Of a stretch of 64,000 nucleotides of DNA, positions 2,791 to 59,010 are shown piece by piece. The notes under the pieces are model-generated. The model was not told the DNA's origin and made no database searches. It saw only the letters and a list, made by a program, of their open reading frames with translations. Both the position numbers and the translations under genes were made by a program. The stretch spans positions 14,446,001 to 14,510,000 of the forward strand of contig OZ024756.1 in the NCBI GenBank assembly GCA_964016885.1. Direction: 5' to 3'. The DNA comes from Eledone cirrhosa (lineage: Eukaryota). How positions within the stretch are numbered: position 1 is the stretch's first letter; each line of letters begins with the position of its first letter.

Positions 2791-3231
2791 GTGGAGGCAC
2801 ATGGCTTAGTGGTTAGAGCATTGGGCTTGCAATCGAAAGGTTGTGAGTTCAATTCTCAGACCGGATGATGTGTTGTTTCCTTGAGCAAGACACTTTATTT
2901 CACATTGCTCCAGTTTACTCAGCTGTAGAAATGATATGATAGGGACTGGGGTCCCTATCATTCCACTGTAAGGAGGTGCCATGGCAAAAAAGCACCCAGC
3001 ACTCACTGTAAATGAGGTTGGTGTTAGGAAGGGCATCCAGCTGTAAAAATCAAGCCAAAATCAGTTCCCGTATGAGCAAGACAAGGTCACCCGACCTAAC
3101 ATTGCCCACAACAGGACAACCCGTCTAACCCATGCTAGCGTGGAAGAATGGACGTAAAATGATGATGATGATGATGACATACATACATATATGTGTTAGC
3201 AGAAGTAAAAGGTAAATATGTAGAGGCTTAC

Positions 3232-20674: not shown

Positions 20675-23600
20675 GTCAGTAAGGTATGGTTGGCATTAGG
20701 AGAAACTAGCTGTGTTAGTAAGGTAGGGGTTGGCATTAGAAAGGGCAGCTGGCTGTGTTAGTAAGGTAGGGGTTGGCATCAGGAAAGGCAACTGGCTGTG
20801 TTAGTAAGGTAGGGGTTGGCATCAGGAAAGGCAACTGGCTGTGTTAGTAAGGTAGGGGTTGGCATCAGGAAGGGCAGCTGGCTGTGTTAGTAAGGTAGGG
20901 GTTGGCATCAGGAAGGGCAGCTAGCTGTGTTAGTAAGGTAGGGGTTGGCATCAGGAAGGGCAGCTGGCTGTGTTAGTAAGGTAGGGGTTGGCATCAGGAA
21001 AGGCAACTGGCTGTGTTAGTAAGGTAGGGGTTGGCATCAGGAAGGGCAGCTGGCTGTGTTAGTAAGGTAGGGGTTGGCATCAGGAAGGGCAGCTGGCTGT
21101 GTTAGTAAGGAAGGGCAGCTAGCTGTGTTAGTAAGGTAGGGGTTGGCATCAGGAAGGGCAACTGGCTGTGTTAGTAAGGTAGGGGTTGGCATTAGAAAGG
21201 GCAGCTGGCTGTGTTAGTAAGGTAGGGGTTGGCATCAGGAAGGGCAGCTGGCTGTGTTAGTAAGGTAAGGGTTGGCATCAGGAAGGGCAACTGGCTGTGT
21301 TAGTAAGGTAGGGGTTGGCATCAGGAAAGGCAACTGGCTGTGTTAGTAAGGTAGGGGTTGGTATCAGGAAGGGCAGCTGGCCGTGTTTACTAAGGTAGGG
21401 GTTGGCATCAGGAAGGGCAACTGGCTGTGTTAGTAAGGTAGGGGTTGGCATCAGGAAGGGCAACTGGCTGTGTTAGTAAGGTAAGGGTTGGCATCAGGAA
21501 GGGCAGCTGGCTGTGTTAGTAAGGTAAGGGTTGGCATCAGGAAGGGCAGCTGGCTGTGTTAGTAAGGTAAGGGGTTGGCATCAGGAAGGGCAACTGGCTG
21601 TGTTAGTAAGGTAGGGGTTGGCATCAGGAAGGGCAACTGGCTGTGTTAGTAAGGTAAGGGTTGGCATCAGGAAGGGCAACTGGCTGTGTTAGTAAGGTAA
21701 GGGTTGGCATCAGGAAGGGCAGCTGGCTGTGTTAGTAAGGTAGGGGTTGGCATCAGGAAGGGCAACTGGCTGTGTTAGTAAGGTAGGGGTTGGTATCAGG
21801 AAGGGCAGCTGGCTGTGTTAGTAAGGTAGGGGTTGGCATCAGGAAGGGCAGCTGGCTGTGTTAGTAAGGTAAGGGTTGGCATCAGGAAGGGCAGCTGGCT
21901 GTGTTAGTAAGGTAAGGGTTGGCATCAGGAAGGGCAGCTGGCTGTGTTAGTAAGGTAGGGGTTGGCATCAGGAAGGGCAACTGGCTGTGTTAGTAAGGTA
22001 AGGGTTGGCATCAGGAAGGGCAGCTGGCTGTGTTAGTAAGGTAAGGGTTGGCATCAGGAAGGGCAGCTGGCTGTGTTAGTAAGGTAGGGGTTGGCATCAG
22101 GAAGGGCAACTGGCTGTGTTAGTAAGGTAAGGGTTGGCATCAGGAAGGGCAGCTGGCTGTGTTAGTAAGGTAAGGGTTGGCATCAGGAAGGGCAGCTGGC
22201 TGTGTTAGTAAGGTAGGGGTTGGCATCAGGAAGGGCAACTGGCTGTGTTAGTAAGGTAAGGGTTGGCATCAGGAAGGGCAGCTGGCTGTGTTAGTAAGGT
22301 AAGGGTTGGCATCAGGAAGGGCAGCTGGCTGTGTTAGTAAGGTAGGGGTTGGCATCAGGAAGGGCAACTGGCTGTGTTAGTAAGGTAGGGGTTGGCATCA
22401 GGAAGGGCAACTGGCTGTGTTAGTAAGGTAGGGGTTGGCATCAGGAAGGGCAACTGGCTGTGTTAGTAAGGTAAGGGTTGGCATCAGGAAGGGCAGCTGG
22501 CTGTGTTAGTAAGGTAGGGGTTGGCATCAGGAAGGGCAACTGGCTGTGTTAGTAAGGTAAGGGTTGGCATCAGGAAGGGCAGCTGGCTGTGTTAGTAAGG
22601 TAGGGGTTGGCATCAGGAAGGGCAACTGGCTGTGTTAGTAAGGTAAGGGTTGGCATCAGGAAGGGCAGCTGGCTGTGTTAGTAAGGTAAGGGTTGGCATC
22701 AGGAAGGGCAACTGGCTGTGTTAGTAAGGTAGGGGTTGGCATCAGGAAGGGCAGCTGGCTGTGTTAGTAAGGTAAGGGTTGGCATCAGGAAGGGCAGCTG
22801 GCTGTGTTAGTAAGGTAGGGGTTGGCATCAGGAAGGGCAACTGGCTGTGTTAGTAAGGTAAGGGTTGGCATCAGGAAGGGCAGCTGGCTGTGTTAGTAAG
22901 GTAGGGGTTGGCATCAGGAAGGGCAGCTGGCTGTGTTAGTAAGGTAAGGGTTGGCATCAGGAAGGGCAGCTGGCTGTGTTAGTAAGGTAGGGGTTGGCAT
23001 CAGGAAGGGCAACTGGCTGTGTTAGTAAGGTAGGGGTTGGCATCAGGAAGGGCAACTGGCTGTGTTAGTAAGGTAAGGGTTGGCATCAGGAAGGGCAGCT
23101 GGCTGTGTTAGTAAGGTAGGGGTTGGCATCAGGAAGGGCAACTGGCTGTGTTAGTAAGGTAAGGGTTGGCATCAGGAAGGGCAGCTGGCTGTGTTAGTAA
23201 GGTAGGGGTTGGCATCAGGAAGGGCAACTGGCTGTGTTAGTAAGGTAAGGGTTGGCATCAGGAAGGGCAGCTGGCTGTGTTAGTAAGGTAAGGGTTGGCA
23301 TCAGGAAGGGCAACTGGCTGTGTTAGTAAGGTAGGGGTTGGCATCAGGAAGGGCAGCTGGCTGTGTTAGTAAGGTAAGGGTTGGCATCAGGAAGGGCAGC
23401 TGGCTGTGTTAGTAAGGTAGGGGTTGGCATCAGGAAGGGCAACTGGCTGTGTTAGTAAGGTAAGGGTTGGCATCAGGAAGGGCAGCTGGCTGTGTTAGTA
23501 AGGTAGGGGTTGGCATCAGGAAGGGCAGCTGGCTGTGTTAGTAAGGTAAGGGTTGGCATCAGGAAGGGCAGCTGGCTGTGTTAGTAAGGTAGGGGTTGGC

Positions 23601-26600
23601 ATCAGGAAGGGCAACTGGCTGTGTTAGTAAGGTAAGGGTTGGCATCAGGAAGGGCAGCTGGCTGTGTTAGTAAGGTAGGGGTTGGCATCAGGAAGGGCAG
23701 CTGGCTGTGTTAGTAAGGTAAGGGTTGGCATCAGGAAGGGCAGCTGGCTGTGTTAGTAAGGTAGGGGTTGGCATCAGGAAGGGCAGCTGGCTGTGTTAGT
23801 AAGGTAGGGGTTGGCATCAGGAAGGGCAGCTGGCTGTGTTAGTAAGGTAAGGGTTGGCATCAGGAAGGGCAGCTGGCTGTGTTAGTAAGGTAGGGGTTGG
23901 CATCAGGAAGGGCAACTGGCTGTGTTAGTAAGGTAAGGGTTGGCATCAGGAAGGGCAGCTGGCTGTGTTAGTAAGGTAGGGGTTGGCATCAGGAAGGGCA
24001 GCTGGCTGTGTTAGTAAGGTAAGGGTTGGCATCAGGAAGGGCAGCTGGCTGTGTTAGTAAGGTAAGGGTTGGCATCAGGAAGGGCAACTGGCTGTGTTAG
24101 TAAGGTAAGGGTTGGCATCAGGAAGGGCAGCTGGCTGTGTTAGTAAGGTAGGGGTTGGCATCAGGAAGGGCAGCTGGCTGTGTTAGTAAGGTAAGGGTTG
24201 GCATCAGGAAGGGCAGCTGGCTGTGTTAGTAAGGTAAGGGTTGGCATCAGGAAGGGCAGCTGGCTGTGTTAGTAAGGTAGGGGTTGGCATCAGGAAGGGC
24301 AACTGGCTGTGTTAGTAAGGTAAGGGTTGGCATCAGGAAGGGCAGCTGGCTGTGTTAGTAAGGTAAGGGTTGGCATCAGGAAGGGCAGCTGGCTGTGTTA
24401 GTAAGGTAAGGGTTGGCATCAGGAAGGGCAGCTGGCTGTGTTAGTAAGGTAAGGGTTGGCATCAGGAAGGGCAGCTGGCTGTGTTAGTAAGGTAAGGGTT
24501 GGCATCAGGAAGGGCAACTGGCTGTGTTAGTAAGGTAAGGGTTGGCATCAGGAAGGGCAACTGGCTGTGTTAGTAAGGTAAGGGTTGGCATCAGGAAGGG
24601 CAGCTGGCTGTGTTAGTAAGGTAAGGGTTGGCATCAGGAAGGGCAACTGGCTGTGTTAGTAAGGTAAGGGTTGGCATCAGGAAGGGCAACTGGCTGTGTT
24701 AGTAAGGTAAGGGTTGGCATCAGGAAGGGCAGCTGGCTGTGTTAGTAAGGTAAGGGTTGGCATCAGGAAGGGCAGCTGGCTGTGTTAGTAAGGTAAGGGT
24801 TGGCATCAGGAAGGGCAGCTGGCTGTGTTAGTAAGGTAGGGGTTGGCATCAGGAAGGGCAGCTGGCTGTGTTAGTAAGGTAAGGGTTGGCATCAGGAAGG
24901 GCAGCTGGCTGTGTTAGTAAGGTAAGGGTTGGCATCAGGAAGGGCAGCTGGCTGTGTTAGTAAGGTAGGGGTTGGCATCAGGAAGGGCAACTGGCTGTGT
25001 TAGTAAGGTAAGGGTTGGCATCAGGAAGGGCAGCTGGCTGTGTTAGTAAGGTAAGGGTTGGCATCAGGAAGGGCAGCTGGCTGTGTTAGTAAGGTAAGGG
25101 TTGGCATCAGGAAGGGCAGCTGGCTGTGTTAGTAAGGTAAGGGTTGGCATCAGGAAGGGCAGCTGGCTGTGTTAGTAAGGTAAGGGTTGGCATCAGGAAG
25201 GGCAACTGGCTGTGTTAGTAAGGTAAGGGTTGGCATCAGGAAGGGCAACTGGCTGTGTTAGTAAGGTAAGGGTTGGCATCAGGAAGGGCAGCTGGCTGTG
25301 TTAGTAAGGTAAGGGTTGGCATCAGGAAGGGCAGCTGGCTGTGTTAGTAAGGTAAGGGTTGGCATCAGGAAGGGCAACTGGCTGTGTTAGTAAGGTAAGG
25401 GTTGGCATCAGGAAGGGCAACTGGCTGTGTTAGTAAGGTAAGGGTTGGCATCAGGAAGGGCAGCTGGCTGTGTTAGTAAGGTAAGGGTTGGCATCAGGAA
25501 GGGCAACTGGCTGTGTTAGTAAGGTAAGGGTTGGCATCAGGAAGGGCAACTGGCTGTGTTAGTAAGGTAAGGGTTGGCATCAGGAAGGGCAGCTGGCTGT
25601 GTTAGTAAGGTAAGGGTTGGCATCAGGAAGGGCAGCTGGCTGTGTTAGTAAGGTAAGGGTTGGCATCAGGAAGGGCAACTGGCTGTGTTAGTAAGGTAAG
25701 GGTTGGCATCAGGAAGGGCAACTGGCTGTGTTAGTAAGGTAAGGGTTGGCATCAGGAAGGGCAACTGGCTGTGTTAGTAAGGTAAGGGTTGGCATCAGGA
25801 AGGGCAGCTGGCTGTGTTAGTAAGGTAAGGGTTGGCATCAGGAAGGGCAACTGGCTGTGTTAGTAAGGTAAGGGTTGGCATCAGGAAGGGCAACTGGCTG
25901 TGTTAGTAAGGTAAGGGTTGGCATCAGGAAGGGCAGCTGGCTGTGTTAGTAAGGTAAGGGTTGGCATCAGGAAGGGCAACTGGCTGTGTTAGTAAGGTAA
26001 GGGTTGGCATCAGGAAGGGCAACTGGCTGTGTTAGTAAGGTAAGGGTTGGCATCAGGAAGGGCAGCTGGCTGTGTTAGTAAGGTAAGGGTTGGCATCAGG
26101 AAGGGCAACTGGCTGTGTTAGTAAGGTAAGGGTTGGCATCAGGAAGGGCAGCTGGCTGTGTTAGTAAGGTAAGGGTTGGCATCAGGAAGGGCAGCTGGCT
26201 GTGTTAGTAAGGTAAGGGTTGGCATCAGGAAGGGCAGCTGGCTGTGTTAGTAAGGTAAGGGTTGGCATCAGGAAGGGCAGCTGGCTGTGTTAGTAAGGTA
26301 AGGGTTGGCATCAGGAAGGGCAACTGGCTGTGTTAGTAAGGTAAGGGTTGGCATCAGGAAGGGCAGCTGGCTGTGTTAGTAAGGTAAGGGTTGGCATCAG
26401 GAAGGGCAGCTGGCTGTGTTAGTAAGGTAAGGGTTGGCATCAGGAAGGGCAGCTGGCTGTGTTAGTAAGGTAAGGGTTGGCATCAGGAAGGGCAGCTGGC
26501 TGTGTTAGTAAGGTAAGGGTTGGCATCAGGAAGGGCAGCTGGCTGTGTTAGTAAGGTAAGGGTTGGCATCAGGAAGGGCAACTGGCTGTGTTAGTAAGGT

Positions 26601-29600
26601 AAGGGTTGGCATCAGGAAGGGCAGCTGGCTGTGTTAGTAAGGTAAGGGTTGGCATCAGGAAGGGCAACTGGCTGTGTTAGTAAGGTAAGGGTTGGCATCA
26701 GGAAGGGCAGCTGGCTGTGTTAGTAAGGTAGGGGTTGGCATCAGGAAGGGCAGCTGGCTGTGTTAGTAAGGTAAGGGTTGGCATCAGGAAGGGCAACTGG
26801 CTGTGTTAGTAAGGTAAGGGTTGGCATCAGGAAGGGCAGCTGGCTGTGTTAGTAAGGTAAGGGTTGGCATCAGGAAGGGCAACTGGCTGTGTTAGTAAGG
26901 TAAGGGTTGGCATCAGGAAGGGCAACTGGCTGTGTTAGTAAGGTAAGGGTTGGCATCAGGAAGGGCAACTGGCTGTGTTAGTAAGGTAAGGGTTGGCATC
27001 AGGAAGGGCAGCTGGCTGTGTTAGTAAGGTAGGGGTTGGCATCAGGAAGGGCAACTGGCTGTGTTAGTAAGGTAAGGGTTGGCATCAGGAAGGGCAGCTG
27101 GCTGTGTTAGTAAGGTAAGGGTTGGCATCAGGAAGGGCAGCTGGCTGTGTTAGTAAGGTAGGGGTTGGCATCAGGAAGGGCAACTGGCTGTGTTAGTAAG
27201 GTAAGGGTTGGCATCAGGAAGGGCAACTGGCTGTGTTAGTAAGGTAGGGGTTGGCATCAGGAAGGGCAACTGGCTGTGTTAGTAAGGTAGGGGTTGGCAT
27301 CAGGAAGGGCAGCTGGCTGTGTTAGTAAGGTAGGGGTTGGAATTAGGAAGGGCAACTGGCTGTGTTAGTAAGGTAGGGGCTGGTATCAGGAAGGGCAGCT
27401 GGCTGTGTTAGTAAGGTAGGGGTTGGCATCAGGAAGGGCAGCTGGCTGTGTTAGTAAGGTAGGGGTTGGAATTAGGAAGGGCAACTGGCTGTGTTAGTAA
27501 GGTAGGGGTTGGCATCAGGAAGGGCAACTGGCTGTGTTAGTAAGGTAGGGGTTGGCATCAGGAAGGGCAACTGGCTGTGTTAGTAAGGTAGGGGTTGGCA
27601 TCAGGAAGGGCAACTGGCTGTGTTAGTAAGGTAGGGGTTGGCATCAGGAAGGGCAGCTGGCTGTGTTAGTAAGGTAGGGGTTGGAATTAGGAAGGGCAAC
27701 TGGCTGTGTTAGTAAGGTAAGGGTTGGCATCAGGAAGGGCAGCTGGCTGTGTTAGTAAGGTAGGGGTTGGTATCAGGAAGGGCAGCTGGCTGTGTTAGTA
27801 AGGTAGGGGTTGGAATTAGGAAGGGCAACTGGCTGTGTTAGTAAGGTAAGGGTTGGCATCAGGAAGGGCAACTGGCTGTGTTAGTAAGGTAGGGGTTGGC
27901 ATCAGGAAGGGCAACTGGCTGTGTTAGTAAGGTAGGGGTTGGCATCAGGAAGGGCAACTGGCTGTGTTAGTAAGGTAAGGGTTGGCATCAGGAAAGGCAA
28001 CTGGCTGTGTTAGTAAGGTAGGGGTTGGCATCAGGAAGGGCAACTGGCTGTGTTAGTAAGGTAGGGGTTGGAATTAGGAAGGGCAACTGGCTGTGTTAGT
28101 AAGGTAGGGGCTGGTATCAGGAAGGGCAGCTGGCTGTGTTAGTAAGGTAGGGGTTGGCATCAGGAAGAGCAGCTGGCTGTGTTAGTAAGGTAGGGGTTGG
28201 TATCAGGAAGGGCAGCTGGCTGTGTTAGTAAGGTAGGGGTTGGAATTAGGAAGGGCAACTGGCTGTGTTAGTAAGGTAAGGGTTGGCATCAGGAAGGGCA
28301 GCTGGCTGTGTTAGTAAGGTAGGGGTTGGCATCAGGAAGGGCAACTGGCTGTGTTAGTAAGGTAGGGGTTGGCATCAGGAAGGGCAACTGGCTGTGTTAG
28401 TAAGGTAGGGGTTGGCATCAGGAAGGGCAGCTGGCTGTGTTAGTAAGGTAGGGGTTGGAATTAGGAAGGGCAACTGGCTGTGTTAGTAAGGTAAGGGTTG
28501 GCATCAGGAAAGGCAACTGGCTGTGTTAGTAAGGTAGGGGTTGGAATTAGGAAGGGCAACTGGCTGTGTTAGTAAGGTAAGGGTTGGCATCAGGAAAGGC
28601 AACTGGCTGTGTTAGTAAGGTAGGGGTTGGTATCAGGAAGGGCAGCTGGCTGTGTTAGTAAGGTAGGGGTTGGAATTAGGAAGGGCAACTGGCTGTGTTA
28701 GTAAGGTAAGGGTTGGCATCAGGAAAGGCAACTGGCTGTGTTAGTAAGGTAGGGGTTGGCATCAGGAAGGGCAACTGGCTGTGTTAGTAAGGTAGGGGTT
28801 GGCATCAGGAAGGGCAGCTGGCTGTGTTAGTAAGGTAGGGGTTGGCATCAGGAAGGGCAGCTGGCTGTGTTAGTAAGGTAAGGGTTGGCATCAGGAAGGG
28901 CAACTGGCTGTGTTAGTAAGGTAGGGGTTGGAATTAGGAAGGGCAACTGGCTGTGTTAGTAAGGTAGGGGTTGGAATTAGGAAGGGCAACTGGCTGTGTT
29001 AGTAAGGTAGGGGTTGGCATCAGGAAAGGCAACTGGCTGTGTTAGTAAGGTAGGGGTTGGAATTAGGAAGGGCAACTGGCTGTGTTAGTAAGGTAGGGGT
29101 TGGAATTAGGAAGGGCAACTGGCTGTGTTAGTAAGGTAGGGGCTGGTATCAGGAAGGGCAGCTGGCTGTGTTAGTAAGGTAGGGGTTGGCATCAGGAAGG
29201 GCAACTGGCTGTGTTAGTAAGGTAGGGGTTGGAATTAGGAAGGGCAACTGGCTGTGTTAGTAAGGTAGGGGCTGGTATCAGGAAGGGCAGCTGGCTGTGT
29301 TAGTAAGGTAGGGGTTGGCATCAGGAAGGGCAGCTGGCTGTGTTAGTAAGGTAGGGGTTGGCATCAGGAAGGGCAACTGGCTGTGTTAGTAAGGTAGGGG
29401 TTGGAATTAGGAAGGGCAACTGGCTGTGTTAGTAAGGTAGGGGCTGGTATCAGGAAGGGCAGCTGGCTGTGTTAGTAAGGTAGGGGTTGGCATCAGGAAG
29501 GGCAGCTGGCTGTGTTAGTAAGGAAGGGCAACTGGCTGTGTTAGTAAGGTAGGGGCTGGTATCAGGAAGGGCAGCTGGCTGTGTTAGTAAGGTAGGGGTT

Positions 29601-29875
29601 GGCATCAGGAAGGGCAGCTGGCTGTGTTAGTAAGGTAGGGCAACTGGCTGTGTTAGTAAGGTAGGGGTTGGTATCAGGAAGGGCAGCTGGCCGTGTTTAC
29701 TAAGGTAGGGGTTGGCATCAGGAAGGGCAGCTGGCTGTGTTAGTAAGGTAGGGGTGGGCATCAGGAAGGGCAGCTGGCTGTGTTACTAAGGTAGGGGTTG
29801 GCATCAGGAAGGGCAACTGGCTGTGTTAGTAAGGTAGGGGTTGGCATCAGGAAGGGCAACTGGCTGTGTTAGTAA
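20675..29875. repeat. 43-bp minisatellite, about 210 copies
   Basis: Unit GTTAGTAAGGTA(G/A)GGGTTGGCATCAGGAAGGGCA(G/A)CTGGCTGT. Confidence 0.98.
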
Positions 29876-29927
29876 GAGAACTACCAAACAGGGATAGCAA
29901 TGAAATAAACATGTTATGTTTACTTAC

Positions 29928-36035: not shown

Positions 36036-36893
36036 TACACATATATATATATATGCATTTATGTTTATAAACACACACACACATATATATATATATACAT
36101 CTATGTACACACACACACATATATATATATACATCTATGTATACACACACACATATATATATATAAATATATACATATACATACATACACACATACATAC
36201 ACACATCACACTAATGGAAGTTATCCTATAAATATTTACAACATTAATGGAAGATATTGATGTAAAGTTATACGACACTAATGGAGGACAGACAGTAAAT
36301 ATTTATCAGGCTAATGGGCAATAACTTGCAAATATATACTCTACATATGTAAGAGATAGTGTATATGTGTGTGTGTGTGTATATATCATCATCATCATCT
36401 TCGTTTAACGTCCATCTTCCACGCTAGCATGGGTTAGACATATATATATGTATATATATACACACACACACACACATGACAAAGGACCGTGACAAGTGGA
36501 GACATGCTGTACTGAATAAGACCCGTCCCACCCTTGCAAGCAGGGAAAAGCGAACGTATGATGATGTTGATGATAATGATAATGATATGTGTGTGTGTTT
36601 TGTGTATGTATATATATATATATAATCAAATAAAGAGATATATGTTTATATATACAGAGAGAGAAAGAGCCATATATCACACAAGAAACACAGTATATTA
36701 TATATATATATATATATACCAAATATATATTCTATAGAAGAATATGTACACAGGTGAAATCATAAGTGAAACCTTACAGCGCTATTTCATACCTGCAGAG
36801 TGTAGCTAAAAATCGATCATCTTTAAACATATTTGATATGTTTTGATTCATTATTTGTACTAGCAGAAAAACCACCCTTCAGGTGGATTTGTA

Positions 36894-37376
36894 CTAGCAG
36901 AAAAACCACCCTTCGGGTGGGTTTCTGCTAGCATGTGTAGAGTGCATATTGATATTATACGCAAGTATATATGCATGTAGATATGATACATCAAATAAAA
37001 TCGTAATTGACAATATATAATACACAGAAATTGAACGAAGACATTGTTACACTGTCTTATTTAATCAGTAACGTAATCCATGATACATTAAAAAAAGACA
37101 ATATTATATATAAACTGCATTAGGAGAAAATTAGTGACAGAAAATTAGTATGTTTATTTAAACGATTGCCAACCGGAAGTGTTGCATTTCAGAAATTTTA
37201 AAGAAGTGAATTTTTAAATAAACAAAATATATTTAATCAACAGCCACGAAATTTAGTAGATAAATTATGTAATATTCATTCATTATTTATTCAAAGTAAT
37301 CTAACTTATTTTACAAAAGGGATAAAAAAAAAAAACCGTACGCAGTCCTGCAGACTTTCCTTTATTATAGTTTAGA
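36894..37376 (-). mobile_element. Non-autonomous Helitron
   Basis: Minus strand starts TCTAAACTATAATAAAG and ends in hairpin CCACCCGAAGGGTGG plus CTAG, inserted between A and T. The 3' end is duplicated at 36860 and also seen at 12385. Confidence 0.75.
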
Positions 37377-37596
37377 TTTAATGGCTCCAAAGCTTTTAAC
37401 TTGTTGAGCTCTGTGGCTAGAATTACCGCTCCTATTTCTAGAGGAGCTATTATCCACCTTATGGATATTTAGTTGCCTCCAGTCTAACGTATTTCACCAT
37501 GCGCTTCTTAGCATGGTGAACGTGTTGGACTTAGCTATGGATATTCCCAGGTATATTGATTTATTTACAATCTTCATTCTATATTTCCCTTAGACT

Positions 37597-37766
37597 AAAC
37601 CTCTGAAGAGTACCTGAGTCTCATGTGGTTTAATCATAATCGATAGTTTGTCTTCGATGATCGAATATATTGATTGATTTTTCTTTCTTTTTCTTCTTTC
37701 GATGATTGATTACATAGATTGATTTTTAGCCACACTCTCCGGGTATGAAATAGCGCTATAAGGTTT
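37597..37766 (+). ncRNA. Type I hammerhead motif with ~135-nt stem II domain
   Basis: AAACCT-CTGAAGA-GTACCTGAG...CTCCGGGTAT-GAAA-TAGCGCTA-TA-AGGTTT. Confidence 0.75.
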
Positions 37767-37984
37767 CACTTATGATTCCACCTGTGTACATATTCTTCTA
37801 TAGAATATGTATTTGGTATATATACAATATAGCGTGTTTCTTGTGTGATTATATGGCTCTTTCCCTCTTTGTGTGTACATATATCTCTTTATTTGGTTAT
37901 TATGGCTCTAACTAAAGTCCATTGAGCTTGCTTATTGAGAAACACAAAATTTTAAACATACTTGATATGTTTTGATTCATTATT

Positions 37985-38015
<31 letters not shown>

Positions 38016-38106
38016 TAGAAAAAAACAAGGAAGTTTCGTTTACATATAAAAGATATTTATTGTGTATCAACCTGTTATGTGCATTTCGCAGAGGATTTGT
38101 CACATC

Positions 38107-38198: not shown

Positions 38199-38962
38199 CA
38201 TCATCATCATTTTACGTCTGCTTTTCCCTGCTTGCAAGGGTGGGACGGGAACTGATTCTGGCTTGATTTCTACACCTGGATGCCCTTCCTAACACCAACC
38301 TCATTTACAGTGAGTGCTGGGTGCTTTTTTTTCCGTGGCACCTACACGTCCACTTTACAGTGTGGGCCGGGTGTTTTTTTTGCCGTGGAATGATAGGGAC
38401 CCCAGTCCCTATCATCTCATTTCTACAGCTGAGTAAACTGGAGCAATGTGAAATAAAGTGTCTTGCTCAAGGAAACAACACATCACCCGGTCTGAGAATT
38501 GAACTCATAACCTTTTGATTGAAAGGCCAATGCTCTAATCACTAAGCCATGTGCCTCCATGTCAATACACAATAAATATCTTTTATATGTAAACAAAACT
38601 TCCTTGTTTCTTTTCTATTATATACACTCTGCCTGTGTATAGAGTGCTTGATTTGGTAGCAACACCAGTAATTCACTGAACCACCTACATATATACATAT
38701 ACACACATATATATATATACATATACACACATATATATATATACATATATATATAGTCTGGAACTAGCTGTTGAAAGTGCAAAAGCTCAGCCATTGGGAT
38801 ACAACTCTTTCATATAACCATACTCTACTACTCCAAGTATCAAGTACTCTGATGAGTAATGGTCTAACCAGTTTCTTATTGTATCCATCTTGATTTATGC
38901 ATATATATATATATATATATATATAAGTTATAAGAATCAAAGTTCTGATCAAATCATTTATA

Positions 38963-39961: not shown

Positions 39962-40908
39962 CCACACAGGGATATGGTGTACCTACTATAAACCAGATAC
40001 ACAGGGATACAGTGTATCTATTGTAAACTAGATATACAGGGATATGGTGTACCTATTGTAAACCAGATATATACAGGGATACAGGGTACCTATTGTAAAC
40101 CAGATATAGACACGGATACAGTGTACCTATTGTAAACCAGATACACACAGGGCTACAGTGTACTATTGTAAACCAGATATACACAGGGATACAGTGTACC
40201 TATTGTAAACCTGATATACACAGGGATACAGTGTACCTATTGTAAACCAGATATACACAGGGATACAGTGTACCTATTGTAAACCAGATATACACAGGGA
40301 TACAGTGTACCTATTGTAAACCAGATAGACACAGGGATACAGTGTACCTATTGCAAACCAGATATACACAGGGATACAGTGTACCTATTGTAAACCAGAT
40401 ATACACAGGGATACAGTGTACCTATTGTAAACCAGATATAGATACGGATACAGTGTACCTATTGTAAACCAGATATACACAGGGATACAGTGTACCTATT
40501 GTAAACTAGATATACACAGGGATACAGTGTACCTATTGTAAACCAAGTACACAGGGATACAGTGTACCTATTGTAAACCAAGTACACAGGGATACAGTGT
40601 ACCTATTGTAAATCAGATATATACATGGATACAGTGTACCTATTGTAAACCAAGTACACAGGGATACAGTGTACCTATTGTAAACCAGATATACACAGGG
40701 ATACAGTGTACCTATTGTAAACCAGATACACACAGGGATATGGTGTACCTATTGTAAACCAGATATACACAGGGATACAGTGTACCTATTGTAAACCAAG
40801 TACACAGGGATACAGTGTACCTATTGTAAACCAGATATACACAGGGATACAGTGTACCTATTGTAAACCAGATATACACAGGGATACAGGGTACCTATTT
40901 TAAACCAG
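39962..40908. repeat. 37-bp minisatellite, about 26 copies
   Basis: Unit CACAGGGATACAGTGTACCTATTGTAAACCAGATATA. Confidence 0.95.
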
Positions 40909-57119: not shown

Positions 57120-59010
57120 TTAAGACCTTCTTCCTGCTATTTCAAGCGTTAACCTAATATATTCCTTCCATATACTGTACCGCTTAACGCTATTGAAGGC
57201 GTTACGCATGTCCAGCTTCACTAGGAAGTGAGGTGATGTGTGCTCTATGAAGTGTTTGGCTGCATGAATTGCCACCTCACGTCCACAATTAATTCCCAAT
57301 CCAAGCTGGACAGGACTGAATACTTCGCCCAGGTTACCTTGGCTGCAAGTCGCCACCAGACGTTGCTCACTGCAATGAGCCGTATGTCGCCATCAGACGT
57401 TGCTCACTGCAATGAGCCGTATGTCGCCATCAGACGTTGCTCACTGCAATGAGTCGTATGTCGCCATCAGACGTTGCTCACTGCAATGAGCCGTATGTCG
57501 CCATCAGACGTTGCTCACTGCAATGAGTCGTATGTCGCCATCAGACGTTGCTCACTGCAATGAGCCGTATGCCGCCATCAGACGTTGCTCACTGCAATGA
57601 GCCGTATGTCGCCACCAGACGTTGCTCACTGCAATGAGTCGTATGTCGCCATCAGACGTTGCTCACTGCAATGAGCCGTATGTCGCCATCAGACGTTGCT
57701 CACTGCAATGAGCCGTATGCCGCCATCAGACGTTGCTCACTGCAATGAGCCGTATGTCGCCACCAGACGTTGCTCACTGCAATGAGCCGTATGTCGCCAC
57801 CAGACGTTGCTCACTGCAATGAGTCGTATGTCGCCATCAGACGTTGCTCACTGCAATGAGCCGTATGTCGCCATCAGACGTTGCTCACTGCAATGAGCCG
57901 TATGCCGCCATCAGACGTTGCTCACTGCAATGAGCCGTATGTCGCCACCAGACGTTGCTCACTGCAATGAGCCGTATGTCGCCACCAGACGTTGCTCACT
58001 GCAATGAGTCGTATGTCGCCATCAGACGTTGCTCACTGCAATGAGCCGTATGTCGCCATCAGACGTTGCTCACTGCAATGAGCCGTATGTCGCCACCAGA
58101 CGTTGCTCACTGCAATGAGCCGTATGTCGCCATCAGACGTTGCTCACTGCAATGAGCCGTATGCCGCCATCAGACGTTGCTCACTGCAATGAGCCGTATG
58201 TCGCCATCAGACGTTGCTCACTGCAATGAGCCGTATGTCGCCATCAGACGTTGCTCACTGCAATGAGCAGTATGTCGCCATCAGACGTTGGTCACTGCAA
58301 TGAGCCGTATGTCGCCATCAGACGTTGCTCACTGCAATGAGCCGTATGTCGCCATCAGACGTTGCTCACTGCAATGAGCCGTATGCCGCCATCAGACGTT
58401 GCTCACTGCAATGAGCCGTATGTCGCCATCAGACGTTGCTCACTGCAATGAGCCGTATGCCGCCATCAGACGTTGCTCACTGCAATGAGCCGTATGTCGC
58501 CATCAGACGTTGCTCACTGCAATGAGCCGTATGTCGCCATCAGACGTTGCTCACTGCAATGAGCCGTATGCCACCATCATTCTTTCTCAGCGTCGTCAAT
58601 TTGACTGAGAAGAGAAGAGAAGAGGTGACGTGCATGGTGAGGGGGCGTTGGCACGAAGAAGCCTGCTGGTGAGAGCGGTGAAGGATCGGCGCAGCCGTGT
58701 TCCCGCCTCATCAGAGTGTGGCGAAATTAGGTCTCTGCGATGGCCGAGTCCCAGGCCATCCACTCCACCACTGGTGTTCCCTGGGAAGGATCCCTGGGCT
58801 GCTGTCATATCCTCATCGGGAGCGGAAAAGGCAGCAACACTGCCAGGGATCTGAAAGTCCCCGATATCGGCCGGTGGGTCCTGGTGCTTGAGACGGAAAG
58901 CGGCCAGGACCTCTGGTGTGGGCTGGAGTACCGTGTTGCTCGAGGCCAGCCGCACGCACCACACATGAAACGTCGCCCTCGCTTAGTTTGCGCTTAACTC
59001 GGCCACGGAG
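57120..59010 (-). mobile_element. Decayed CRE/R2-type non-LTR retrotransposon interrupted by a VNTR
   Basis: SFPGNTSGGVDGL, LRKNDGGIRLIAVSNV, PVQLGLGINCGREVAIHA, LVKLDMRNAFNSVKR. Confidence 0.8.
57349..58577. repeat. 37-bp minisatellite, about 33 copies, inside an RT remnant
   Basis: Unit GTCGCCATCAGACGTTGCTCACTGCAATGAGCCGTAT. Confidence 0.96.

What the first reader, a model, noticed from the sequence alone, without database searches (positions are those of the whole stretch)
36622..37985. Most complete foldback element: inverted arm, direct terminal repeat and long-stem hammerhead
Layout: inverted partial arm (36622-36817, including the 3' half of the ribozyme), then a 35-bp copy of the element's own 3' end (36822-36856 matches 37951-37985 with one mismatch), a nested Helitron, body, hammerhead 37597-37766 with a ~135-nt stem II insert, and a tail ending in (TA)n. 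A 3' end repeated at the start fits reverse transcription of a tandem or circular RNA template, as proposed for pLTR/retrozyme elements.
Basis: partly seen in the sequence, partly recalled or inferred. Interest (0 to 1): 0.7.

Follow-up and report, generated by a model that had tools for sequence, protein, structure and literature searches.

The report
Penelope-type insertion of hammerhead repeat
This is one decayed copy of a 609-base non-coding jumping repeat that carries a predicted self-cutting RNA motif and was likely pasted into TA repeats by Penelope-type transposon enzymes; its layout matches the published layout of such insertions, so it is a new example of a known kind.

Summary
The layout is real. 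The 35-bp 'terminal repeat' is the start of a second lap of a ~609-nt non-coding unit. The tail-to-head junction recurs in 17 of 20 copies that reach it in a search not aimed at it, and the lap varies in length, so it is not a target duplication. The insert is a separate Helitron-type family (A|TC...CTAG|T). Arms end at two fixed sites 89 nt apart, mostly before (TA)n. Of 24 two-armed insertions with both ends on these sites, 23 have one short and one long end. This is the published Penelope-like (PLE) layout: partial tandem, inverted 5'-truncated copy, one-sided tail. The type I hammerhead has a palindromic stem III, a long stem II and a possible 8-bp pseudoknot; covariation does not exceed shuffles and cleavage is untested. 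No tandem array, partner element or RNA run was found. Linear versus circular template is unresolved; long-end arms stop soon after one lap, a mixed hint for a circle. This scan reported the same two-armed pattern for other families in this genome. Verdict: new member of a known kind; not a DNA foldback element.

The parts
36605..36622 (.). Left (TA)n target tract
   Evidence: sequence
36623..36818 (-). Inverted 5'-truncated arm (unit positions 339-521). Ends at the 'short' 3' site; holds only the 3' half of the hammerhead
   Evidence: 85% to 37717-37900; class
36822..36859 (+). Partial second lap: last 38 nt of the unit (pseudo-LTR-like tail-to-head repeat)
   Evidence: junction in other copies
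36853..36933 (+). 34-bp tandem duplication (2.4 copies) spanning target bases and the Helitron 3' end; inferred to postdate the Helitron insertion
   Evidence: other family members lack it (matches start at query position 25-35)
36860..37376 (-). Nested non-coding Helitron-type element (483 bp, 36894-37376, plus the duplication), inserted at A|T exactly in the tail-to-head junction, no target duplication
37377..37985 (+). One full lap of the ~609-nt non-coding unit, ending at the 'long' 3' site
   Evidence: 43 of 591 bases differ from the family majority
37597..37766 (+). Type I hammerhead motif: 6-bp stem I, CUGAAGA (37603), 7-bp stem II with about 120 further nt, GAAA (37747); predicted cut between 37760 and 37761
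   Evidence: activity untested
37617..37624 (+). 3' strand of a possible 8-bp pseudoknot (or inactive hairpin) with the sequence 5' of stem I; the window copy has lost 9 nt that include part of the partner strand
   Evidence: no covariation support
37750..37759 (+). Palindromic stem III (10 nt); predicted to pair as a dimer (-13.1 kcal/mol) and not to fold alone
37900..37985 (+). One-sided 'tail' between the short and long 3' end sites (89 nt in the family majority)
37981..38015 (.). Right (TA)n target tract

Best explanation
This is one insertion of a non-coding, hammerhead-bearing 609-nt repeat, likely mobilised in trans by a Penelope-like retrotransposon and later interrupted by a Helitron-type element. 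Shown: unit, dispersed family, two fixed 3' ends, TA targets, head-to-head arms, second lap, nested insert. Inferred: the PLE endonuclease nicks both strands of a (TA)n tract. Reverse transcriptase then starts at two internal RNA sites 89 nt apart, one for each strand. Both cDNAs stop early and are joined 5' to 5'. In this copy the long-site cDNA ran one full lap plus 38 nt (the 'direct repeat') and the short-site cDNA ran about 195 bp (the inverted arm). The template must have been more than one unit long with an intact hammerhead: an uncut tandem transcript (about 0.55) or a circle (about 0.45). The ribozyme would cut best as a dimer.
For: Junction: in the search, whose query did not span it, 17 of 20 loci that reach the head have tail directly upstream. 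12 exact junction-pattern hits against 0 for the reversed control. Lap starts range from unit position 150 to 597. Ends: 58 of 165 arm ends fall at 601-609 and 42 of 165 at 511-530; a TA/TG run follows 37 of 47 long and 22 of 33 short ends. Of 59 two-armed events, 23 are short+long, 1 long+long, 0 short+short (p=1.5e-6 on these 24); 35 had an end elsewhere. Opposite arms share polymorphic letters at 205 of 260 sites against 50% for other loci. This matches the PLE layout in PMC3846280 and PMC8557442 (passages) and the two internal RT starts with extension of both strands in PMC11167929 (parts 1-2 of 4). Uninterrupted 826-850-aa ORFs with RT-like and GIY-YIG-like motifs lie in 4 of 20 fetched stretches (motif labels from my own knowledge).
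Against: No autonomous partner found: 50 PLE-type loci share only TA-rich low-complexity matches with the unit. Pfam support for those ORFs is weak: GIY-YIG 17.6 bits, below the 22.6 cut-off; no RT family hit; no PDB hit. The tail is 89 nt, not the 30-40 bp of the papers. No target-site duplication can be read in (TA)n. No locus has two full hammerheads on one strand, so no source array was seen. The predicted minimum-energy fold of the majority hammerhead is not the active one (-47.3 against -40.5 kcal/mol, pseudoknot not scored). Covariation does not exceed shuffles (7 pairs against 8.1 +/- 1.8).
Confidence: 0.88

Rival explanations
1. Sub-model: the template was a circular monomer made by hammerhead cleavage and ligation, and RT stalled on its own cDNA shortly after one lap.
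For: Long-end arms that enter the previous unit stop within 89 nt in 12 of 15 cases against 38% expected from the first-lap rate (p=0.001); short-end arms in the same stretch stop at the base rate, 7 of 15. Stop positions differ by arm class (medians 566 and 502, p=0.007; p=0.014 for the 19 arms whose own end was read) while total lengths do not differ significantly (p=0.15). The unit folds stably as a circle, z -8.0 on 40 shuffles.
Against: Short-end arms that pass their own start do not stop faster (4 of 8, p=0.36). The arm lists are hand-curated, 15 per class, partly classed by the partner rule and partly recruited by junction queries. The antisense strand also folds well (z -5.3). A second primer on a linear tandem RNA would give the same long-arm stops. 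No copy with two ribozymes to release a monomer was found.
Confidence: 0.45
2. The unit is the detached terminal repeat (pLTR plus 3' UTR) of an autonomous PLE that was not found, not a self-standing non-autonomous family.
For: One copy (L026) lies about 450 bp downstream of a decayed GIY-YIG-like remnant. Animal retrozymes are reported to be related to pLTRs (preprint 10.64898/2026.07.22.740005, parts 1-3 of 5).
Against: The tail joins the head directly, with no ORF between, in 41 loci. In L026 a truncated second Helitron separates remnant and unit. None of 8 other 10-kb stretches around relatives of that remnant holds the unit. Shared flanks between copies looked like other common repeats. 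Descent from a pLTR remains possible.
Confidence: 0.07
3. A DNA foldback/MITE-type element with the 35-bp repeat as target duplication, or a later local inverted duplication.
For: Inverted arms flank the insertion and some copies are near-perfect palindromes.
Against: The repeat is element sequence of variable length. Arms are unequal, 5'-truncated and obey the short/long end rule; a later duplication cannot explain that rule.
Confidence: 0.02
4. Single-cDNA snap-back (self-priming) made the inverted arm from the first arm.
For: Palindromic inner junctions in several copies. Self-priming is proposed in PMC3846280 (passage).
Against: In many events the short arm covers sequence absent from the long arm (L178, L190, L204, L206, L276, L280), which needs a second priming on the template.
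Confidence: 0.08

Closest known systems
Insertions of endonuclease-bearing Penelope-like elements (PMC3846280 passages; PMC8557442 passages; PMC11167929 parts 1-2 of 4)
   Same: Partial tandem (pLTR), adjacent inverted 5'-truncated copy, tail on one end only, two fixed 3' ends, AT-rich/(TA)n targets, hammerhead inside the repeat.
   Different: No ORF; whole unit is 609 nt; tail is 89 nt rather than 30-40 bp; partner element not identified.
Metazoan non-LTR retrozymes (PMC7229834 passages; preprint 10.64898/2026.07.22.740005 parts 1-3 of 5)
   Same: Non-coding, low-GC unit with a type I hammerhead, head-to-tail junctions, length within the reported 51-972 bp, PLEs present in the same genome.
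   Different: No dimer or multimer with two ribozymes found, so it fails the preprint's 'active retrozyme' definition; expression and circles untested; copies are old (8.0% from majority).
Hammerheads of PLE pLTRs (PMC4209133 parts 1-2 of 4; PMC6765202 passages) and pseudoknotted hammerheads (PMC3088659 passages)
   Same: Type I, palindromic stem III suited to dimers, 7-bp stem II base; pseudoknots between stems I and II are reported for about 40% of hammerheads.
   Different: Stem II carries about 110-120 extra nt; no extra base before stem II; G-U at 10.1-11.1 in place of the usual G-C; the pseudoknot here lacks covariation support. I saw no stem II this long in the passages read, but supplements and the Lunse et al. 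paper (seen only as a reference line) were not read.
Non-autonomous Helitrons (defining ends recalled from my own knowledge)
   Same: 5' TC, 3' hairpin then CTAG, A|T target, no duplication.
   Different: This copy has a 34-bp duplication over its 3' end; no Rep/helicase partner was sought.

Membership tests
PLE-mobilised insertion | Partial tandem (tail-to-head) of variable length | tested here: met
   41 loci in all; 17 of 20 in the search not aimed at the junction
PLE-mobilised insertion | Adjacent inverted 5'-truncated copy | tested here: met
   59 two-armed events tabulated
PLE-mobilised insertion | Tail at one end only / two fixed RT start sites | tested here: met
   23 short+long, 1 long+long, 0 short+short; 35 unclassed; tail 89 nt, longer than published
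PLE-mobilised insertion | AT-rich or (TA)n target | tested here: met
   37 of 47 long and 22 of 33 short ends run into TA/TG repeats
PLE-mobilised insertion | Sequence shared with an autonomous PLE partner | tested here: inconclusive
   none in 50 PLE-type loci, a small share of 71132 first-look candidates
Autonomous PLE | RT + GIY-YIG ORF between the repeats | tested here: not met
   tail joins head directly; unit is 609 nt
Non-LTR retrozyme | Non-coding repeat unit with type I hammerhead | tested here: met
Non-LTR retrozyme | Tandem copies with two or more complete hammerheads | tested here: not met
   none in 111 loci or among 67 and 29 exact pattern hits; diverged or unassembled arrays could be missed
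Non-LTR retrozyme | Expressed, self-cleaved monomer and circular RNA | not testable with these tools
   needs RNA reads or bench work
Type I hammerhead | CUGANGA / GAAA / UH core with stems I-III | tested here: met
   window copy is 1 of 10 of 69 arms with intact core, stem I and stem II; core positions differ 4.4% against 8.0% overall; no Rfam hit
Type I hammerhead | Covariation of the helices and pseudoknot | tested here: inconclusive
   not above shuffles in 60 of 69 arms aligned; 4 of 4 common non-CpG variants at paired hammerhead positions keep pairing, but only 10 of 24 over the whole unit
Type I hammerhead | Self-cleavage | not testable with these tools
   bench assay needed
Helitron (nested insert) | 5' TC, 3' hairpin + CTRR, A|T target, no target duplication | tested here: met
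   19, 18 and 19-20 of 20 loci
DNA foldback / MITE | Matching terminal inverted repeats with a target-site duplication | tested here: not met
   arms unequal, with different fixed ends

The most novel reading that the evidence does not exclude
The family spread with no genomic tandem source: a 609-nt, highly folded RNA circle with a pseudoknotted, long-armed hammerhead was kept as a variant population at RNA level and copied from both ends of a TA-repeat break by a Penelope dimer, each RT stalling on its own cDNA after one lap. Arm-length statistics would then be a genomic record of circular-RNA retrotransposition, which the papers read propose but do not show.
Probability: 0.15. Interest if true: 0.65.

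Novelty: new member of a known kind. Interest (0 to 1): 0.3.

Why it matters
It is a clean, countable example of how Penelope-type enzymes insert: one short-site and one long-site arm in 23 of 24 classable events, in line with a two-strand, two-start-site mechanism so far shown in vitro for one lizard element (PMC11167929). If a full census confirms that arms stop just after one lap, it would test the long-proposed circular RNA intermediate from DNA alone. The long stem II also shows why family-library scans miss such hammerheads. The locus itself is a decayed repeat with no sign of a host function.

Tried and rejected
Rfam scan: no hammerhead hit in the window. Sequencing runs: no RNA holder listed; three contig runs of one sample. 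Laying them showed family-wide mixed cover only and no piece spanning the locus. Partner search: the GIY-YIG-like remnant beside L026 led to decayed relatives without the unit, and 50 further PLE-type loci showed no homology. The protein atlas did not answer, so the ORFs' RT label rests on motifs. A sister family with a short stem II: upstream flanks of arms starting at 280-400 and 28 tail-side pattern hits showed none. A hard 5' wall at the ribozyme cut site: not seen; 1 of 23 lapping arms passes it against 2.4 expected, so the test has no power. RT stalling at the base of stem II: 21 of 164 starts at 341-380, a weak excess confounded by pattern selection; not claimed. One-RNA twin priming as a general rule: 16 of 23 events overlap within one unit and 7 have gaps of 7-58 nt; placements on a multimer remain possible, so it is undecided. 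Two apparent short+short events (L278, L288) end in the internal TA run at 494-498 and were reclassed as unresolved. Literature: 'retrozyme + cephalopod' and 'hammerhead + Penelope + octopus' (taxon words were a guess) listed no paper on such a family; the library lacks most subscription journals and repeat databases were not searched.

Full report
Observation. The inverted arm 36622-36818 matches 37900-37717 at 85%, and 36822-36856 matches 37951-37985 with one mismatch. The hammerhead core lies at 37603 and 37747 with 137 nt between the halves. (TA)n follows at 37981-38015. The window comes from a 3.0-Gb eukaryotic assembly, G000.

The unit. A search with 37380-37985 gave 1236 first-look candidates, 40 of them scored; dispersed copies were 78-88% identical over long matches. 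With further DNA and pattern searches I collected 111 distinct loci and 17 more flagged new, plus L278 added by hand. An exact 22-mer occurs 67 times; a few hundred copies is my inference. The family majority is 609 nt. Copies differ from it by 8.0% and fall into at least three groups. Below, position 1 follows the long end; the short end is at about 520 and the predicted cut is after 382.

The direct repeat is a second lap. Tail joins head directly in 36 loci by BLAST and in 5 more with 13-30-nt tails. Some of these were recruited with junction queries. In the first search, which did not span the junction, 17 of 20 loci reaching the head have the tail upstream. The lap starts anywhere from position 150 to 597, so it is neither a fixed terminal repeat nor a target duplication. 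In the window it is 38 bp.

The nested insert. 36860-37376 belongs to a separate family with 4396 candidates and 92-95% identity among the best hits. Its ends are those of a Helitron in 18-20 of 20 loci (defining ends from my own knowledge). It sits at the A|T of the junction, with a 34-bp duplication over its 3' end. It is inferred to be later and unrelated to the element's mechanism.

Two fixed ends, one per arm. Of 165 arm ends, 58 lie at 601-609 and 42 at 511-530, mostly before TA/TG runs. Of 59 head-to-head events, 24 have both ends on these sites: 23 short+long, 1 long+long, 0 short+short (p=1.5e-6). The other 35 have an end elsewhere, and only 1 of 59 has both arms past the short site. 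Opposite arms share polymorphic letters at 205 of 260 sites against 50% (this count includes a few non-adjacent pairs), so they come from like templates in one event. The window copy fits the rule: short inverted arm, long main arm. I had noted the two ends before the look-up; the one-of-each test was prompted by earlier notes of this scan, which are leads and not support.

Comparison. PMC3846280 (passages) gives the typical Penelope structure as two direct pLTRs, an adjacent inverted pLTR and an optional tail on one of them. PMC8557442 (passages) describes the same, with a microsatellite bias. PMC11167929 (parts 1-2 of 4) shows a PLE protein cleaving and extending both strands at AT-rich DNA and starting RT at two internal RNA sites that bound the tail; uncut RNA was the main substrate in vitro. 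PMC4209133 (parts 1-2 of 4) proposes circles as templates for more-than-unit copies. PMC7229834 (passages) shows circles for tandem retrozymes, and the 2026 preprint (parts 1-3 of 5) ties these to pLTRs. No supplements were read; they may hold similar long-stem motifs.

The ribozyme. It is type I, with a 6-bp stem I, a 7-bp stem II base and a 10-nt palindromic stem III that is predicted to pair only as a dimer. The 124-nt stem II domain of the majority folds with z -4.7; the window copy's region has z -2.1. The 8 nt before stem I can pair with the 8 nt after stem II. This would be a pseudoknot of the kind described in PMC3088659 (passages), or an inactive hairpin. The window copy has lost 9 nt there. 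Against: the unconstrained fold is not the active one and covariation does not exceed shuffles. Common non-CpG variants keep pairing in 4 of 4 hammerhead positions but in only 10 of 24 over the whole unit; rare ones keep it in 461 of 1471. Ten of 69 arms, the window's among them, keep core, stem I and stem II.

Template. Full-lap copies contain an intact ribozyme, so the template was uncut or re-ligated there. No locus has two full ribozymes on one strand. The longest arms are 751 nt, or 797 and one doubtful 981 when inserts are bridged. Long-end arms stop within 89 nt of completing a lap in 12 of 15 cases (38% expected, p=0.001). Short-end arms in the same stretch stop at the base rate (7 of 15), and they do not stop faster after their own start (4 of 8). 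The first two results fit a circle and the third does not; a second primer on a linear tandem RNA also fits. Samples are small, hand-curated and partly biased. I put the circle at about 0.45.

Partner. Young PLE-type elements exist: 149 matches to an endonuclease-side fragment, and uninterrupted 826-850-aa ORFs with RT-like motifs, a cysteine-rich linker and a GIY-YIG-like end in 4 of 20 stretches. Library support is weak and none shares sequence with the unit.

Verdict. A real, old, non-autonomous PLE-type insertion with the textbook layout and a later Helitron. It works like a non-LTR retrozyme monomer or pLTR-only element, but it does not meet the tandem criterion for an active retrozyme. 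New member of a known kind; interest 0.3.

Noticed in passing
window 8380, 39604, 43246, 60711, 63482 (+); about 53261, 39461, 35165 (-): Eight more type I hammerhead-like motifs of other sequence families; two have 59-61 nt between the core halves; 39461/39604 form an inverted pair.
   Followed up: partly
L026 (= L111), head of the unit: A second, different Helitron-type family (95% to its own copies, 84% to the window's) sits at the same A|T of the junction, truncated, next to a decayed GIY-YIG-like remnant. L002 and L148 carry SINE-like inserts at the junction too. May be chance at an AT-rich site.
   Followed up: partly
window 38009-38067 and 38565-38624: 60-bp inverted repeat (95%) right of the element, framing about 500 bp of other repeat DNA.
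   Followed up: no
L242, L243, L245, L246: Uninterrupted 826-850-aa PLE-type ORFs of two families (58% identical to each other); one family has many copies at 93-97% identity, so it was recently active.
   Followed up: partly
L257:2456 and 2987 (-): Two identical hammerhead motifs 531 bp apart on one strand with a 51-nt stem II region: a tandem retrozyme-like repeat of another family.
   Followed up: no
L037, Helitron insertion site: A copy of the window's Helitron family is inserted inside the core of another hammerhead family, between GAAA and the palindrome.
   Followed up: no
window 21108-29876; 39964-40908; 57349-58579: Satellite arrays: 43 bp x 204 copies; 37 bp x 26; another 37 bp x 33.
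   Followed up: no
window 2802-2859: tRNA-like match just above gathering score (31.2 bits), probably the head of a SINE.
   Followed up: no
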